Part shown: in pieces, positions 6,645-14,588 of the stretch
Layout of the letters: each line of letters begins with the position of its first letter
How positions within the stretch are numbered: the first letter of the stretch is position 1
Made by a program: the position numbers and the translations under genes
Notes under the pieces: model-generated
Seen by the model: the letters and a program-made list of their open reading frames with translations, nothing else
What the model was told of the DNA's origin: nothing
Database searches by the model: none
Source of the DNA: a virus
UHGV virus genome: UHGV-1704081
Direction: 5' to 3' (one strand)
DNA length: 14,593 bases

Positions 6645-8063
6645 ATGCCGATTCAGCAACTTCCGCTTATGAAAGGCGTCGGCAAAGACTTTCGAAACGC
6701 CGACTATATCGACTATCTGCCAGTGAATATGTTGGCTACACCAAAAGAAATCCTTAACAGCAGCGGATATCTTCGCTCATTCCCGGGCATTGCCAAACGT
6801 TCTGATGTGAACGGCGTATCGCGCGGCGTCGAGTACAACATGGCGCAGAATGCTGTTTATCGTGTGTGTGGTGGCAAGCTGTACAAAGGAGAAAGTGAAG
6901 TCGGTGATGTTGCCGGAAGTGGTCGCGTATCAATGGCGCATGGTCGAACATCACAGGCGGTAGGCGTTAACGGGCAACTGGTCGAATACCGCTATGATGG
7001 CACGGTTAAAACCGTCTCAAACTGGCCTGCAGACAGCGGGTTTACGCAGTATGAGTTAGGTTCGGTTCGTGATATTACGCGCTTACGTGGGCGTTATGCG
7101 TGGTCAAAAGACGGTACTGATTCATGGTTCATCACTGACCTTGAAGACGAATCACATCCTGACCGATACAGCGCACAATATCGTGCAGAATCGCAGCCTG
7201 ACGGCATCATCGGAATCGGAACATGGCGAGACTTCATCGTCTGCTTTGGTTCATCGACGATTGAATATTTCTCCCTGACTGGCGCAACCACAGTTGGTGC
7301 TGCTTTATATGTCGCACAGCCATCGCTGATGGTGCAAAAAGGCATCGCCGGAACTTACTGCAAAACGCCATTCGCTGATTCTTATGCGTTCATCAGCAAT
7401 CCGGCAACAGGTGCTCCGTCTGTATACATCATCGGCTCCGGTCAGGTATCACCAATCGCCAGCGCGAGCATTGAGAAAATTCTCCGCTCCTACACTGCTA
7501 ATGAACTGGCTGATGGTGTGATGGAGTCTCTGCGATTTGATGCGCATGAGCTGCTGATTATCCATCTTCCGCGCCATGTTCTGGTGTACGACGCATCTTC
7601 AAGCGCCAATGGTCCGCAATGGTGTGTGCTGAAAACAGGCCTGTATGACGATGTGTACCGCGCTATCGACTTCATTTACGAAGGCAATCAGATAACGTGC
7701 GGCGATAAGCTGGAATCGGTTACTGGCAAATTGCAGTTCGATATCAGCAGCCAGTATGGGCTTCAACAGGAACACCTGCTGTTTACTCCACTGTTCAAAG
7801 CGGATAACGCCAGATGCTTCGATCTGGAGGTGGAATCATCCACTGGCGTAGCTCAGTACGCCGACCGCCTGTTCCTCTCTGCAACCACTGACGGCATAAA
7901 TTACGGACGTGAGCAGATGATTGAACAGAATGAACCGTTCGTTTACGACAAACGTGTTTTGTGGAAGCGAGTCGGGCGCATCAGGAAAAATGTCGGCTTC
8001 AAATTGCGCGTTATCACGAAGTCACCTGTCACTCTGTCTGGCGCTCAGATAAGGATTGAGTAA
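6645..8063 (+). CDS. Tail hub protein (P22 gp10-like)
   Basis: 472-aa ORF, the same length as P22 gp10 as I recall. N-terminus [16 protein letters not shown]…[27 protein letters not shown] matches my recollection of gp10. Stop overlaps the next start (TAATG at 8061-8065). Confidence 0.9.
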
Positions 8064-11392: not shown

Positions 11393-13257
11393 TGGCTAAA
11401 GCATGGAAAGATGTTATCGCCTCTCCACAGTATCAGGCGTTAACTGAAGAACAGAAAGCACAGGCTCAAGCGCAATATTTTGATGAGGTTGTTGCCCCTA
11501 AGGCTGGTGACAAATGGGCTGAAGCAAGAGATCAGTTTTATGCAGCATACCCTCCGCCTCAGCAGCAGAAAGAAGAACCATCATTGATGCAACAAGCTGG
11601 CGATTGGCTCACTGGTGGTCAAAGTGCAGGGCAAATTGCAGAACAGGCTGGTCGTGGTCTGGTAAACATACCATTTGACGTATTGCAGGGTGGCGCAAGT
11701 CTGATTAATGCAATCAGTCAGGGGCTTGGTGGCCCCAAGGTTTTGGACGATGTCTATCGTCCAGTAGATCGACCAACAGACCCTCATGCGCAAGCTGGAG
11801 AAACAATTGGCGGGTATTTAGTTCCAGGAGTTGGAACGGCAGGAAGCATGGCTATTGGATCACTGGCAGAGGCCGCAAATCAGAAAGGCGATTTCGCACA
11901 AAATGCAGCTAAAAATGCCGGAGTTAACCTTGCCGCTCAGGGGGTTCTTTCCGCAGCAGCAAAGGGAATAGGGCGTGGAATTACTGCTGTTCGTGGCGAA
12001 ATATCACCAGCAGATCAGCAATTGCTCAAGCGTGCCGCTGCGGCAGATGTACCAGTTATGACATCGGATGTAGTTCCTCCAAAAACAAAACTTGGCAATC
12101 AACTGCAGGGTTACTCAGAAGGAGTCATAGCTGGTACTGGACCAATGAGAGCCGCACAGCAGGATGCCAGAACCAAGCTTGTTAATCGCTTCACCGAAAA
12201 ATACGGCGACTACGATCCATCTGTAGTCGTTGATAGTCTAAAGTCAGGCGTTGCAAGGGAAAAATCGTTAGCCAAGTCAAAACTAAACAGCCTGTCAGGA
12301 AGAATGGTTGGAAAGCCAGTTGATACAAGTGGCGCCATAAGAGCTATCGACGGAGCAGTAAACGAACTTGGGAAACTTAAAGGTGTTTCTGACACCCAGA
12401 CCATTTCTGCGCTTAATGATTATAAGAATGCCATTCAGGAGATAACAAATGGAGATGATGCCTTTGAGTTACTTGATAAGCTGAGAACTCAGTTCCGCAT
12501 TGACGTAAAAGGCGATCGTACAGTTCTGCCATCAATGTCGCAAACAATGGTCGACAGGGTCTACAACTCGCTAACCAATAGCCTTAGTAAATCTATAGCG
12601 AAAGGACTTAGCCCAAAAGATGCTTCAGCATGGAGAGCGGGAAAAGCTGATTATGCAAAAATGGCAACACATGCAACTCAAACGCGCCTTAAAAACGTTC
12701 TAAACAAAGGAGATTTAACTCCCGAGGCTGTAAATACCATTGTGTATGGACAATATGGGTCAGATATAGCTCGATTGTACGGGAAACTCGATCAAAAAGG
12801 TAAAGACATGCTAAGGGCGGCATATATCAGCAAAATAGCTGACAAGGTAGGTGACAGCCCTCAGAAAATGATGACCGAGCTTGGCAAGCTGCAAAAACAA
12901 GCAAATGGTCAGGTGTTTAAAACTGTATTTGGTGGGAAGAACGGAAAAGAGATAGAGGGGATGTTATCTATTCTCGATGCTACCAAAAGAGCATCTGAGG
13001 CTAATGTTGTGACGAAGACTGGCATGACACTCGCGCCTTTGGTAAGGGTTATTGGTAACCTAAAAACCGGAGGCGCGCTATTGGCTGGGGAAACAGGGAT
13101 TGGCCTTATGTCGAGGGTTTATGAAAGCCCTATGGCTAGGAATGCGCTCTTACGTCTGGCAAACACTAAAGCTGGAACGCCAGCTTATGAAAGAGCGTTA
13201 AGCAAAGCTGCAAATGCCATCAGACCGCTGCTTGCCACTGAGGCAACACAGCAGTGA
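11392..13257 (+). CDS. Ejection protein, P22 gp16-like
   Basis: 621-aa ORF, close in size to P22 gp16 as I recall. Last gene of the ejection-protein trio. A/G/K-rich composition typical of this family. Confidence 0.8.
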   Translation: MAKAWKDVIASPQYQALTEEQKAQAQAQYFDEVVAPKAGDKWAEARDQFYAAYPPPQQQKEEPSLMQQAGDWLTGGQSAGQIAEQAGRGLVNIPFDVLQGGASLINAISQGLGGPKVLDDVYRPVDRPTDPHAQAGETIGGYLVPGVGTAGSMAIGSLAEAANQKGDFAQNAAKNAGVNLAAQGVLSAAAKGIGRGITAVRGEISPADQQLLKRAAAADVPVMTSDVVPPKTKLGNQLQGYSEGVIAGTGPMRAAQQDARTKLVNRFTEKYGDYDPSVVVDSLKSGVAREKSLAKSKLNSLSGRMVGKPVDTSGAIRAIDGAVNELGKLKGVSDTQTISALNDYKNAIQEITNGDDAFELLDKLRTQFRIDVKGDRTVLPSMSQTMVDRVYNSLTNSLSKSIAKGLSPKDASAWRAGKADYAKMATHATQTRLKNVLNKGDLTPEAVNTIVYGQYGSDIARLYGKLDQKGKDMLRAAYISKIADKVGDSPQKMMTELGKLQKQANGQVFKTVFGGKNGKEIEGMLSILDATKRASEANVVTKTGMTLAPLVRVIGNLKTGGALLAGETGIGLMSRVYESPMARNALLRLANTKAGTPAYERALSKAANAIRPLLATEATQQ

Positions 13258-13274
13258 CTAAATGCCATGGATGG

Positions 13275-13463
13275 TTATTTCCCTAGCACATGAAACAATG
13301 TTTGCTTTAATTCCACCCATACAATTATGACCACTATAGACAGACAAAAGAAACTGAATGCATTGGCATCACGATCGAAACCTTCTCCGGCACTAAATCC
13401 GTAAAAGGTCATAAAAAATATAAAAATTGCGCACTTTGCAACGTTTACAAATTTTTTCTTCAC
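13275..13463 (-). CDS. Small predicted two-helix membrane protein (62 aa from GTG; 87 aa if the upstream ATG at 13538 is used)
   Basis: Minus-strand ORF convergent with gp16. Strong Shine-Dalgarno AGGAGG (complement of 13469-13474) with 5-nt spacer before in-frame GTG (complement of 13461-13463). Product MKKKFVNVAKCAIFIFFMTFYGFSAGEGFDRDANAFSFFCLSIVVIIVWVELKQTLFHVLGK: basic N-terminus, two hydrophobic segments, short acidic loop. AT-rich. Confidence 0.55.
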   Translation of the reverse strand: MKKKFVNVAKCAIFIFFMTFYGFSAGEGFDRDANAFSFFCLSIVVIIVWVELKQTLFHVLGK

Positions 13464-13527
13464 ACCAACCTCCTTAGTTTTGCGCAGGATACCAGATGAT
13501 AATGTGTAGTTGGAGTAGCGCGGTTGC

Positions 13528-13594
13528 AATGCAAGCATTTTGTTTTAGTTTTATGCTTGCTTGTATGTGTGTACAGTGTATATAATGCAAGCAT
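13528..13594. promoter_or_regulatory. Three copies of a GCAAGCAT core motif (two direct, one inverted) flanking the promoter; candidate operator sites
   Basis: AATGCAAGCAT at 13528-13538 and again at 13584-13594 (11/11 identical; the second overlaps the -10 box). The inverted copy ATGCTTGC at 13553-13560 overlaps the candidate -35. Spacing is GCAAGCAT-N14-ATGCTTGC-N26-GCAAGCAT. Confidence 0.4.
13557..13586 (+). promoter_or_regulatory. Candidate sigma70 promoter for the downstream accessory ORF
   Basis: Perfect -10 TATAAT at 13581-13586. Candidate -35 TTGCTT at 13557-13562 (18-bp spacer), or TTGTAT at 13561-13566 (14-bp spacer). Lies about 34 nt upstream of the ATG at 13620, in an AT-rich intergenic region. 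Confidence 0.5.
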
Positions 13595-13619
13595 ACATCA
13601 CAACAAAGGTTCTTGCATT

Positions 13620-14588
13620 ATGACTGAAAAGAAAAGTGGCGAAGGGAAAGCTAAGGGCGGGATCGCTCGCGCAAAGTCGCTGACTAAAGAGCAGCGTTCT
13701 GAAATAGCAAAGAAAGCAGCTGCTGCAAGATGGAAAAGTAAGATTCTCAGGGCAACTCATCGTGGTAACTTTTTAGATGATTTTGGCATTGACGCTGAAT
13801 GTTATGTACTGGATGACGAGTCGAAAACTGTCGTTGTTACGAAAACTGGATTATCTCAGTTGCTAGGGATTGGTGAACATGCCAGGGATTTAGATCAACT
13901 GCTTGGCGCTCAGTATATGAGCAAATACCGAGATCTAGAATTGCAGCGAAAAATGGAAAATCCCTATAAATTTCAACTTACTTCGAAGTCTAAAACCGTT
14001 CATCAAGCGTTAGGTTATGACATTACAGCAATTGTTGATATTGGTAGGGCACTAATAGAAGCCAAAGATAATGACGATCTACCACAATCACGGTTAAAGG
14101 CAGCCGCCGCAGCACAGAGACTTATTAATGCCTCCGCTAAGGCGGGAATTAAGGGGGTTGCGTATGCGCTTGCTGGTTATCGCCCAGAAGTTCAGGCTGT
14201 CATTGACGAGTTCAAAGCGTTTGTTCGTGAAGAGGCTCGTCAATATGAAAAGGAATTTCCAGATGAGCTATACGAGGAGTGGTATCGACTGTACGGCCTG
14301 AATAGGCCAGAGAAAGGACGGCCTATTCGTTTTGGGCAGCTAACCAACATGCAGATATACACCCCGCTAGCAAAGAGTAAAGGTAAAATCCTTGAACAGA
14401 TTCGAGCCAGCCGAGACGAGAACGGAAAACAATCTGATAAGTTGCATCTGTTCCTTTCTGAAATTGGTGTCAAGGCTTTGCGTCAGCATATCGGTAAGCT
14501 TCTTGGTGTCGCAGCGATGAGTGAGACAAGAGAAGAATACGAAAAAGGAATAGAAAAGGTTTTCGGAAGAATGAAACCAGAAATCTAA
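13620..14588 (+). CDS. Hypothetical protein (~322 aa) with a highly basic N-terminal segment; function unknown, candidate accessory/defence gene
   Basis: Long ORF. ATG at 13620 preceded by AAAGG (13605-13609) and the TATAAT promoter. N-terminus MTEKKSGEGKAKGGIARAKSLTKEQRSEIAKKAAAARWKSK is K/R/A-rich, suggesting nucleic-acid binding. No Walker A, HNH or other catalytic motif seen by eye. The ORF track's TTG 13524 version adds 32 hydrophobic residues. Stop TAA at 14586-14588 is followed 2 nt later by ATG at 14591. Confidence 0.8.
   Translation: MTEKKSGEGKAKGGIARAKSLTKEQRSEIAKKAAAARWKSKILRATHRGNFLDDFGIDAECYVLDDESKTVVVTKTGLSQLLGIGEHARDLDQLLGAQYMSKYRDLELQRKMENPYKFQLTSKSKTVHQALGYDITAIVDIGRALIEAKDNDDLPQSRLKAAAAAQRLINASAKAGIKGVAYALAGYRPEVQAVIDEFKAFVREEARQYEKEFPDELYEEWYRLYGLNRPEKGRPIRFGQLTNMQIYTPLAKSKGKILEQIRASRDENGKQSDKLHLFLSEIGVKALRQHIGKLLGVAAMSETREEYEKGIEKVFGRMKPEI

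What the first reader, a model, noticed from the sequence alone, without database searches (positions are those of the whole stretch)
13620..14588. Unassigned ~322-aa protein with a histone-tail-like basic N-terminus and no visible catalytic motif
The first ~40 residues (KKSGEGKAKGGIARAKSLTKEQRSEIAKKAAAARWKSK) look like a nucleic-acid-binding tail. The rest is mixed, predicted largely helical, with conserved-looking blocks (HRGNFLDDFGIDAECYVLDDESKTVVVTKTGLSQLLGIG; EFPDELYEEWYRLYGL) that I cannot match to a known family from memory. It has its own promoter and is immediately followed by another gene, which suggests a sensor or DNA-binding component of a multi-gene system.
Basis: partly seen in the sequence, partly recalled or inferred. 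Interest (0 to 1): 0.8.

Follow-up and report, generated by a model that had tools for sequence, protein, structure and literature searches.

The report
Self-regulated prophage P63C accessory gene
The ORF is a real, conserved prophage gene of the named but functionally unknown P63C family; it travels as a self-contained cassette with its own promoter and four palindromic DNA boxes that its basic N-terminal tail probably binds, and it most resembles the prophage defence protein BstA in layout and genomic position.

Summary
The 322-aa ORF (13620-14588, +) is real, intact and under purifying selection. It is not unassignable. It matches Pfam P63C (PF10546) and PHROG 2384, both of unknown function, and RefSeq names it 'P63C domain-containing protein'. 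It lies in a P22-like E. coli prophage between ejection gene 16 and immI, the slot P22 uses for sieA. The next gene is a convergent mnt, not an operon partner.

New here: the ~95 bp upstream carry four 10-bp palindromic boxes (ATGC-WW-GCAT) over the -35, the -10, the ribosome-binding site and the start codon. Boxes and tail travel together across Gamma-, Beta- and Alphaproteobacteria and Actinobacteria, down to 29% protein identity. They are about 420-fold enriched upstream of these genes. In 2.9 million viral contigs, 37 of 43 exact box pairs abut such a gene. Tail-less P63C genes have no boxes and sit directly 3' of the phage repressor. One contig joins the same tail and boxes to a true BstA abortive-infection protein.

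Best reading: an autorepressed, lysogen-expressed accessory protein with a DNA-binding tail and a Bro-N/KilA-N-like N-domain, probably a BstA-like anti-phage factor. The autoregulation is well supported by inference; the defence role is a hypothesis. No solved structure resembles the protein.

The parts
13620..14588 (+). CDS, 322 aa, P63C domain-containing protein (identical to RefSeq WP_000136767.1)
   Evidence: ORF; Pfam PF10546, PHROG 2384; RefSeq annotation; purifying selection
13644..13733 (+). N-terminal basic tail, aa 9-38 (GKAKGGIARAKSLTKEQRSEIAKKAAAARW), modelled as two short helices; proposed reader of the boxes
   Evidence: helices 11-20 and 23-37; invariant G13 G14 R17 A30 R37 W38; only block conserved in all box-linked relatives; free-standing module in 6262 protein clusters
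13746..14189 (+). N-domain, aa 43-190, alpha/beta then helical, confidently modelled; weakly Bro-N / Ant-N / BstA KilA-N-like
   Evidence: pLDDT 85-93; hhalign to BstA aa 30-162, probability 53%, E 1.3e-4; weak BFVD hits named Bro-N / Ant N-terminal; no PDB match
14214..14477 (+). P63C domain (Pfam PF10546), aa 199-286, helical, poorly modelled
   Evidence: E 6.8e-14, 52.7 bits; pLDDT 47-79
13529..13538 (.). Box 1, ATGCAAGCAT (O1 left)
13553..13562 (.). Box 2, ATGCTTGCTT (O1 right, one mismatch); overlaps the candidate -35 TTGCTT at 13557-13562
   Evidence: sequence
13581..13586 (+). Candidate -10 hexamer TATAAT, 18 nt after the -35; overlaps box 3 by 2 nt
   Evidence: read from the sequence; conserved in alignment A2
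13585..13594 (.). Box 3, ATGCAAGCAT (O2 left)
13609..13618 (.). Box 4, GTTCTTGCAT (O2 right; two mismatches here, GTGCTTGCAT in most other copies); ends 1 nt before the ATG
13275..13463 (-). Divergent small gene, 62 aa from a GTG with Shine-Dalgarno AAGGAGG, two hydrophobic segments, PHROG 21338. It is a variable neighbour in the sieA slot, not part of the cassette.
   Evidence: other occupants of this position

Best explanation
The gene is a single-gene 'moron' cassette of a temperate phage. Its promoter is overlaid by four palindromic ATGC-WW-GCAT boxes at about -91, -67, -35 and -11 from the ATG. The protein's own basic two-helix N-terminal tail binds these boxes and represses the promoter, so the lysogen holds the protein at a low, steady level (inferred, about 0.65). 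The body is a Bro-N/KilA-N-like N-domain followed by a helical P63C domain and is the effector. By its layout, its genomic slots and a shared 5' module with BstA, it most likely acts on the DNA of infecting or competing phages as a BstA-like exclusion or abortive-infection factor (inferred, about 0.4). Shown here: gene integrity and selection, family membership, the mobility and architecture of the cassette, and the statistical link between boxes, tail and gene. Not shown: any binding, repression or phage phenotype.
For: - **Real gene:**. Family.
- **The cassette moves as a unit.** The same ~95 bp with boxes precedes homologues in the P22 sieA slot, directly 3' of cI in Klebsiella prophages and ST104, between Q and holin, at a prophage end next to dinI, and as a lone opposite-strand gene. 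In several copies a terminator-like hairpin sits just 5' of the boxes.
- **Boxes are specific to these genes.** Density is 23 per kb in the 130 nt upstream against 0.055 per kb elsewhere, in loci found by protein alone. All 80 tail-matched viral loci have 1-4 boxes at fixed positions. Of 43 exact box pairs in 2.9 million viral contigs, 37 abut such a gene, with the ATG overlapping or abutting the last box or lying 53-56 nt downstream of the exact pair. The reverse-orientation scan agrees.
- **The tail tracks the boxes.** It is the only block conserved down to 29% identity. Canonical tails go with GCAAGCA boxes in phages of Enterobacteria, Burkholderia, Pseudomonas, Paracoccus and Gordonia, which argues against a host factor. 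Variant tails in 933W and E192a go with different repeats. Three tail-less P63C genes have no boxes.
- **Lysogen-expressed position.** Tail-less and tailed homologues sit directly 3' of, or next to, the phage repressor in at least seven lineages.
- **Link to BstA.** One contig has the same tail and boxes on a protein 48% identical to BTP1 BstA (PADLOC BstA E 6e-122). Profile-profile comparison aligns window residues 61-201 with BstA residues 30-162. BstA is a lysogen-expressed abortive-infection protein encoded 3' of cI, with a DNA self-immunity element that spans its own start codon (PMC8585504).
Against: - There is no experimental evidence for binding, repression or defence.
- The window protein has no PADLOC hit at E<=1 and lacks the BstA C-terminal domain.
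- Similarity to BstA's N-domain is only 53% probability. Foldseek/BFVD hits are all weaker than E 1e-3.
- The tail motif occurs in thousands of unrelated small proteins.
- The tail-plus-BstA fusion is a single contig.
- In 933W the homologue lies in the nin (lytic) operon.
- The near-universal conservation of the box is unlike BstA's variant-specific aba elements.
- Box 4 is degenerate in this particular copy.
Confidence: 0.45

Rival explanations
1. It is an antirepressor-type switch protein, like P22 Ant or Roi. The N-module targets it and the P63C domain binds and inactivates a repressor or another regulator, affecting induction of its own or of competing prophages.
For: A natural chimera (P0123) joins residues 1-127 of this protein to ORF6C/P22_AR_C, the C-terminal domain of Ant. 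The named BFVD structural hits are Bro-N, Ant N-terminal and 'repressor domain' proteins. The gene sits beside immI (mnt-arc-ant) here. The same order, P63C / Arc(-) / Arc(+) / KilA-N, recurs in Paracoccus phage Pkon1. In 933W it lies next to roi in the nin region.
Against: Many homologues are placed directly 3' of the prophage's own repressor, apparently co-transcribed in the lysogen. That would be self-defeating for an antirepressor aimed at that repressor. No Pfam hit to P22_AR, Bro-N or KilA-N. P0123 may be a rare recombinant or an assembly artefact.
Confidence: 0.2
2. It is a transcription factor whose main job is to regulate other phage or host genes (a lysogenic-conversion regulator); autoregulation is incidental.
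For: It has a probable sequence-specific DNA-binding head and a Bro-N/KilA-N-like domain. P63C was originally described among viral transcription-regulator domain fusions (my own knowledge of Iyer et al. 2002; the paper was not retrievable).
Against: Box pairs are almost confined to the gene's own 5' end: 37 of 43 exact pairs in viral contigs. Elsewhere in the 14.6-kb window there is only one single near-match, which is chance level. Density elsewhere in the loci is 0.055 per kb.
Confidence: 0.1
3. The boxes work as RNA, not DNA. Inverted boxes form 5'-UTR hairpins that hide the start codon, and the arginine/lysine-rich tail is an RNA-binding peptide (like lambda N with boxB) that gives translational autoregulation.
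For: The last box overlaps or abuts the ATG in nearly all copies, and the spacer holds the ribosome-binding site. A 10-nt perfect inverted repeat runs 13582-13591 / 13612-13621. The tail's composition resembles arginine-rich RNA-binding motifs (inference).
Against: Each box is itself a 10-bp palindrome, and its sequence, not just its complementarity, is conserved across phyla; no compensatory changes are seen. The best -10 overlaps the left box of the proximal pair, so the transcript should lack that arm. The distal pair lies upstream of the promoter and just after a terminator.
Confidence: 0.1
4. It is one component of a multi-gene system with its neighbours, for example with the small divergent membrane protein or with mnt/arc/ant.
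For: It shares a divergent promoter region with a small membrane ORF in this window. In Salmonella it is divergent from a real SieA. The P63C-Arc-Arc-KilA-N order recurs in Paracoccus phage Pkon1.
Against: The divergent neighbour differs from copy to copy, even beside the identical protein: 62/87, 75, 109, 134 and 161-164 aa. In most other contexts there is no immI and no divergent gene.
Confidence: 0.07

Closest known systems
BstA, a prophage-encoded abortive-infection protein with the aba self-immunity element (Owen et al. 2021, PMC8585504)
   Same: Both are a single ~300-aa prophage protein with an N-terminal viral DNA-binding-type domain and a second, uncharacterised C-terminal domain. Homologues occupy the same slot, directly 3' of the cI repressor. 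Both have a short functional-looking DNA element straddling the 5' end of the gene. One natural protein carries this finding's tail and boxes on a true BstA body.
   Different: The window protein does not hit the BstA model and has a P63C C-terminal domain instead of the BstA one. N-domain homology is only suggestive. BstA's aba is specific to each variant and has CCCGCC direct repeats. The boxes here are palindromes, nearly invariant across phyla, and overlie a promoter, which points first to autorepression. This copy lies in the sieA slot, not 3' of cI.
P63C domain family (Pfam PF10546; phage Mx8 p63 C-terminus), including ST104 orf23 and 933W L0095
   Same: It passes the Pfam threshold. Length and tail / N-domain / P63C order are shared. 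ST104 orf23 has the same terminator, boxes and tail at its 5' end.
   Different: The window's subfamily is a divergent branch: 52.7 bits, against 94-118 bits for canonical members, and 25-31% identity to them. No function is recorded for any member in the searched literature.
P22 SieA and lambda RexAB (classical lysogen-expressed exclusion genes)
   Same: Same genomic slots: gene 16 to mnt for sieA, and 3' of cI for rex. Both are accessory genes expressed independently.
   Different: No sequence relationship. SieA and RexB are membrane proteins, whereas this protein is soluble and looks DNA-binding. In Salmonella it coexists with SieA.
P22 Ant and Bro-N / KilA-N modular phage regulators
   Same: Modular design with an N-terminal DNA-binding-type domain and a swappable C-terminal domain. 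Structural hits are weak. A chimera carries the Ant C-terminal domain.
   Different: No Pfam match to Bro-N, KilA-N or P22_AR. Regulation is by its own boxes rather than by Mnt/Arc.

Membership tests
P63C (Pfam PF10546) | Score above the Pfam gathering threshold | tested here: met
   52.7 bits against a cut-off of 26.1, E 6.8e-14, residues 199-286 covering profile positions 3-92 of 93
PHROG 2384 (phage protein family of unknown function) | Full-length profile match | tested here: met
   E 1.7e-104, residues 6-321 against profile positions 4-328 of 338
BstA abortive-infection system | Match to the BstA protein model (PADLOC PDLC02356) or the BstA C-terminal domain (PF26567) | tested here: not met
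   No PADLOC hit at E<=1 and no PF26567. Positive controls: BTP1 BstA 1.9e-124 and the L023 protein 6.1e-122.
BstA abortive-infection system | KilA-N-like N-terminal domain homologous to BstA residues 32-147 | tested here: inconclusive
   hhalign of the enriched P63C profile against the BstA profile: probability 53%, E 1.3e-4, 114 columns. Against a single BstA sequence the probability was 6%.
BstA abortive-infection system | Encoded directly 3' of the prophage repressor and expressed in the lysogen | tested here: inconclusive
   True for homologues in Klebsiella prophages, ST104, SI8, Midgardsormr38, Javan515 and Kuwabara. This copy lies between gene 16 and mnt. Expression was not testable.
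BstA abortive-infection system | Abortive-infection phenotype and DNA-based self-immunity (aba) | not testable with these tools
   Needs phage challenge and high-copy box-titration experiments
SieA (PF26849) | Match to the SieA model; membrane protein | tested here: not met
   No Pfam hit. A true SieA sits next to the homologue in Salmonella.
Bro-N / KilA-N / P22 antirepressor domains | Pfam match to PF02498, PF04383, PF10547 or PF10548 | tested here: not met
   None at E<=1. Only weak structural resemblance: Ant N-terminal domain, probability 0.94, E 0.14, target-normalised TM-score 0.50.
KGG / YciG / LEA_5 hydrophilic stress-protein repeats (for the tail) | Pfam match over the tail | tested here: not met
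   No hit for the window protein. Relatives give only sub-threshold LEA_5 hits of 16-22 bits against a cut-off of 40. JGI labels some tail-only proteins 'YciG'.
Any protein of known 3D structure | Sequence or fold match in the PDB | tested here: not met

The most novel reading that the evidence does not exclude
P63C proteins are an unrecognised, widespread family of prophage-encoded anti-phage proteins, parallel to BstA. The ~30-aa tail with its ATGCWWGCAT box array is a portable control module, shared between P63C and BstA bodies and conserved from Proteobacteria to Actinobacteria. The module sets the level of the protein by autorepression and, as the prophage replicates and the boxes multiply, titrates the protein away, giving self-immunity like aba.
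Probability: 0.25. Interest if true: 0.8.

Novelty: new variant of a known kind. Interest (0 to 1): 0.55.

Why it matters
P63C has been a named domain with no function since about 2002, and it is present in well-studied phages such as 933W and ST104 and in about 4% of complete E. coli genomes. This analysis turns an 'unassigned ORF' into specific, cheap experiments: a defined 100-bp operator fragment, a defined 30-residue candidate reading head, and a phage-challenge test prompted by the shared slot and shared 5' module with BstA. If the tail-box pair is confirmed, it would be a compact, portable autoregulatory part. It would also point to a DNA-binding function for a short motif found in thousands of otherwise unannotated small proteins.

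Tried and rejected
- **Curated defence and naming models.** NCBIfam and PADLOC gave no hit.
- **Literature.** Searches for 'P63C', 'P63C domain', PF10546, L0095 and the box sequence found nothing functional. Iyer et al. 2002 is not held.
- **Finding the tail on other proteins.** The tail-only locus search in viral contigs returned only close P63C relatives. Tail-only protein searches did find thousands of other carriers, but three small-protein loci had no boxes, so 'tail implies boxes' does not hold in general.
- **Host-regulator sites.** I compared the boxes by eye with LexA, CRP and Fur sites. I rejected this because the boxes recur in phages of hosts from different phyla.
- **Pseudogene.** Rejected.
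- **Operon with the downstream gene.** Rejected, because that gene is a convergent mnt.
- **Promoter scan.** The simple scan did not call the promoter I propose, so that promoter rests on direct reading and on conservation.

Full report
**1.

The window is the late half of a P22-like (Lederbergvirus) prophage of E. coli. It encodes terminase, portal, scaffold, coat, gp4, gp10, the needle, and ejection proteins gp7, gp20 and gp16, which ends at 13257.

It is a functional gene. Compared with two near-identical copies it has 4.2% and 6.9% synonymous differences and no non-synonymous ones. dN/dS is 0.26 and 0.18 against copies at 77% and 54% protein identity, and none of the eight copies examined has an internal stop. 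Homologues form 1682 clusters in the protein database. The DNA is present in 240 of 5426 complete E. coli genomes.

**2. It belongs to a named family of unknown function**

- Pfam P63C (PF10546) matches residues 199-286 at 52.7 bits, against a cut-off of 26.1.
- PHROG 2384 ('unknown function') matches full length at E 1.7e-104.
- RefSeq already names the identical protein WP_000136767.1 'P63C domain-containing protein'.
- NCBIfam, PADLOC and PDB sequence searches return nothing.
- Full-text searches found no functional study of any P63C protein.
- Distant relatives (25-31% identity) include ST104 orf23 and 933W L0095.

**3. Context**

In full-length copies the gene lies between gene 16 and the immI region (mnt, arc, ant) followed by the tailspike. 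This is where P22 carries sieA. The next gene starts 15 nt after the stop but is a convergent mnt, so the two do not form an operon.

Upstream and divergent is a small ORF at 13275-13463 on the minus strand. It is 62 aa from a GTG with a strong Shine-Dalgarno sequence, has two hydrophobic segments, and matches PHROG 21338. The occupant of this position changes from copy to copy. In Salmonella it is a true SieA.

**4. The gene is a mobile, self-contained cassette**

Homologues occur as lone genes in several classical accessory-gene positions of temperate phages:

| Position | Examples |
|---|---|
| sieA slot (gene 16 to mnt) | E. coli and Salmonella P22-like prophages |
| Directly 3' of the CI repressor, same strand | Klebsiella prophages (80% identity); ST104 |
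| Beside the repressor | metagenomic contigs L016, L017 |
| Between antiterminator Q and holin | Enterobacter prophage |
| Prophage end, next to dinI | Rahnella; Salmonella phage SEN34 |
| Lone opposite-strand gene inside an operon | metagenomic contig L013 |

The ~95 bp upstream travel with the gene in all of these contexts. In several copies that block is preceded by a terminator-like hairpin followed by a T-run.

**5. The upstream block is an array of palindromic boxes over a promoter**

In the window the boxes are:

| Box | Coordinates | Sequence | Overlap |
|---|---|---|---|
| 1 | 13529-13538 | ATGCAAGCAT | - |
| 2 | 13553-13562 | ATGCTTGCTT | candidate -35 TTGCTT (13557-13562) |
| 3 | 13585-13594 | ATGCAAGCAT | perfect -10 TATAAT (13581-13586) by 2 nt |
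| 4 | 13609-13618 | GTTCTTGCAT | ends 1 nt before the ATG; GTGCTTGCAT in most copies |

The spacer between boxes 3 and 4 holds the ribosome-binding site. Each box is itself an ATGC-WW-GCAT palindrome.

- **Enrichment in independently found loci.** In loci found by protein identity alone, boxes with at most one mismatch occur at about -91, -67, -35 and -11 from the ATG. Density is 23 per kb there, against 0.055 per kb in the rest of the loci, roughly 420-fold.
- **All tail-matched loci have boxes.** All 80 viral loci retrieved through the tail peptide have 1-4 boxes at these positions.
- **The converse scan.** I scanned 2.9 million viral contigs for ATGCAAGCAT-N10-22-ATGCTTGCAT and found 43 contigs. 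In 37 of them a homologue starts right at the motif: the ATG overlaps the last box by 2 nt, abuts it, or lies 53-56 nt downstream. In one of the 37, the gene body is split off by a ~1.4-kb insertion. The other six look like chance or terminator hairpins, and none has a tail-bearing ORF next to the motif.
- **Reverse orientation.** The reverse-orientation scan gives the same picture. Every new contig with three or more boxes has a tail-bearing protein of ~325-355 aa beside them.

**6. The tail is the best candidate for the box reader**

- **Conservation.** Among box-linked proteins spanning 100% down to 29% identity, the only block conserved in all is G-[KR]-A-x-GG-x-ARA-xx-[LM]-[ST]-xxx-R-xx-IA-xx-AA-xx-RW.
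- **Host range.** Canonical tails co-occur with GCAAGCA-type boxes in phages of Enterobacteria, Burkholderia (Bups phi1), Pseudomonas (Lodos), Paracoccus (Pkon1) and Gordonia (Barco). That range makes a host-encoded binding factor unlikely.
- **Variant tails, variant repeats.** Two relatives have variant tails ending ...KAVAA[KR]... (933W L0095 and Burkholderia E192a). They carry other repeats instead: ACGTGCA and GTTAGATAT.
- **No tail, no boxes.** Three P63C relatives lack the tail: Erwinia phage Midgardsormr38, Salmonella phage SI8 and Streptococcus phage Javan515. They have no boxes and no inverted repeats. All three lie immediately 3' of the phage repressor, as if they use its promoter.
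- **DNA rather than RNA.** What is conserved is the box sequence, not just complementarity between boxes. The likely -10 overlaps the left box of the proximal pair, so the transcript should lack that arm.
- **Caveat.** The tail is a widespread free-standing motif. It occurs in 6262 representative protein clusters: alone, in tandem, at the C-terminus of 50-90-aa proteins, or fused to an XRE-type HTH. No Pfam or NCBIfam model covers it. Three loci of such small proteins have no boxes. The tail-box link therefore holds for this class of cassette, not for every carrier of the motif.

**7. The protein body**

AlphaFold2, run on 59 homologues, gives mean pLDDT 74. Residues 43-190 are confident (85-93): a beta-hairpin region followed by helices. 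The P63C part is helical but poorly modelled.

A natural chimera, P0123, fuses residues 1-127 of this protein to the ORF6C/P22_AR_C part of Ant. This fits the known shuffling of N- and C-terminal modules among such phage proteins.

**8. The link to BstA**

One viral contig (L023) has the same tail and the same boxes in front of a protein with no P63C domain. That protein is 48% identical to BTP1 BstA over 286 residues (E 2e-96) and matches the PADLOC BstA model at 6e-122.

BstA is a validated prophage abortive-infection protein. It is encoded 3' of cI and highly expressed in lysogens. It has a KilA-N-like N-domain, and a 63-bp DNA element that spans its start codon gives the prophage self-immunity (PMC8585504).

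An enriched P63C profile aligns window residues 61-201 with BstA residues 30-162 at 53% probability, E 1.3e-4. The motifs shared in order are CYVLDD..KT.V..RG...LG against GVLNDGTPYLT.RGLA.MCG, and the GYD(P) region. The window protein is not itself a BstA: it gives no PADLOC hit and lacks the BstA C-terminal domain.

**9. Most likely mechanism**

The cassette is an insulated unit of promoter, operator and gene. The protein, probably as a dimer or higher oligomer, uses its N-terminal tails to bind the four palindromic boxes that cover the -35, the -10, the ribosome-binding site and the ATG. This represses its own synthesis and keeps a low constant level in the lysogen (inferred, about 0.65).

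The body probably acts as a BstA-like factor against incoming or competing phage DNA (inferred, about 0.4). The grounds are the shared slots, the shared 5' module, the suggestive N-domain homology and the two-domain layout.

A further speculation is that multiplied boxes on a replicating prophage titrate the protein away, as aba does for BstA. The near-invariance of the box argues against variant-specific immunity of the BstA kind.

Rivals are listed with their tests: an Ant/Roi-like antirepressor (0.2), a regulator of other genes (0.1), RNA-level control (0.1), and a component of a multi-gene system (0.07).

**10. Verdict**

Its 'nucleic-acid-binding tail' idea is supported by comparative evidence. 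'No family' and 'multi-gene system' are not supported.

The protein is a divergent member of a known but uncharacterised family. The box-tail cassette, its sharing with BstA, and the recurrent placement of the family next to the repressor do not appear in the searched literature, and they make the function testable. I rate it a new variant of a known kind, a BstA-like accessory protein expressed in the lysogen, with interest 0.55.

Noticed in passing
window 13275-13538 (-); probable true start GTG at 13463: Small divergent ORF: 62 aa from a GTG preceded by AAGGAGG, two hydrophobic segments, PHROG 21338 of unknown function. It occupies the sieA position and is not annotated in the RefSeq copy L001. 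The occupant of this position varies between otherwise identical prophage regions: 75, 109 and 134 aa, or a real SieA of 161-164 aa.
   Followed up: partly
proteins P0121-P0269 and P0390-P0501: The N-terminal tail motif (GG.ARA..LT.EQRSEIA.KAA.ARW) is a widespread free-standing module. It is found in 6262 representative clusters: alone, in tandem (up to 11 copies), at the C-terminus of 50-90-aa proteins that begin 'RP.D.NQLAK.IVD..TGE', or fused to an XRE-type HTH. No Pfam or NCBIfam model covers it. JGI sometimes labels these proteins 'YciG'.
   Followed up: partly
L165 and L166, 2501-3201: A 66-aa tail-bearing protein (P0402) lies 20 nt upstream of a SocA_Panacea-domain gene. Panacea is known to me as an antitoxin domain, so this may be a toxin-antitoxin-like pair. 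There are no ATGCWWGCAT boxes upstream.
   Followed up: no
L023 (IMGVR_UViG_3300020050_008442), gene on the minus strand next to boxes at 1533-1605: A BstA homologue (48% identical to BTP1 BstA) carries the same N-terminal tail and the same upstream boxes as the P63C cassettes. None of the 120 closest BstA homologues has a tail.
   Followed up: yes
protein P0123 (277 aa): Chimera: residues 1-127 are identical to the window protein, followed by the ORF6C/P22_AR_C domains of the antirepressor Ant. This could come from a deletion that joins the P63C gene to the nearby ant gene.
   Followed up: partly
L010 upstream of 8001, compared with window 13528-13594: Some Salmonella copies lack 56 bp between the two direct AATGCAAGCAT repeats (boxes 1 and 3). 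This leaves a single box pair and a TGTAAT in place of the TATAAT -10.
   Followed up: partly
L157 (ST104 orf23) 3917 vs 3953; L156 (933W L0095) 4417 vs 4459: The deposited or RefSeq start codons of these homologues lie inside or upstream of the repeat boxes. An in-frame ATG placed like the start codon of the other family members gives the conserved tail at the usual distance, so the annotated N-terminal extensions are probably wrong. Gene callers also extend the window protein, to 339 aa in P0001.
   Followed up: partly
L171 (Paracoccus phage vB_PkoS_Pkon1) 1165-3297: The order and orientation are the same as at the window locus: P63C (+), Arc-like (-), Arc-family repressor (+), KilA-N protein (+). 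It is in an alphaproteobacterial siphovirus and has canonical boxes upstream of the P63C gene.
   Followed up: no
L031 and L101 (same contig, IMGVR_UViG_2872092312_000001): A homologue is split: boxes and the first ~40 codons are separated from the rest of the gene by about 1.4 kb, presumably an insertion. L099 also has a 108-aa truncated copy.
   Followed up: no
L014 about 6825-6900: Just upstream of the Enterobacter cassette, between Q and holin, there is a sequence that looks by eye like a tRNA gene. I did not check it with ARAGORN.
   Followed up: no
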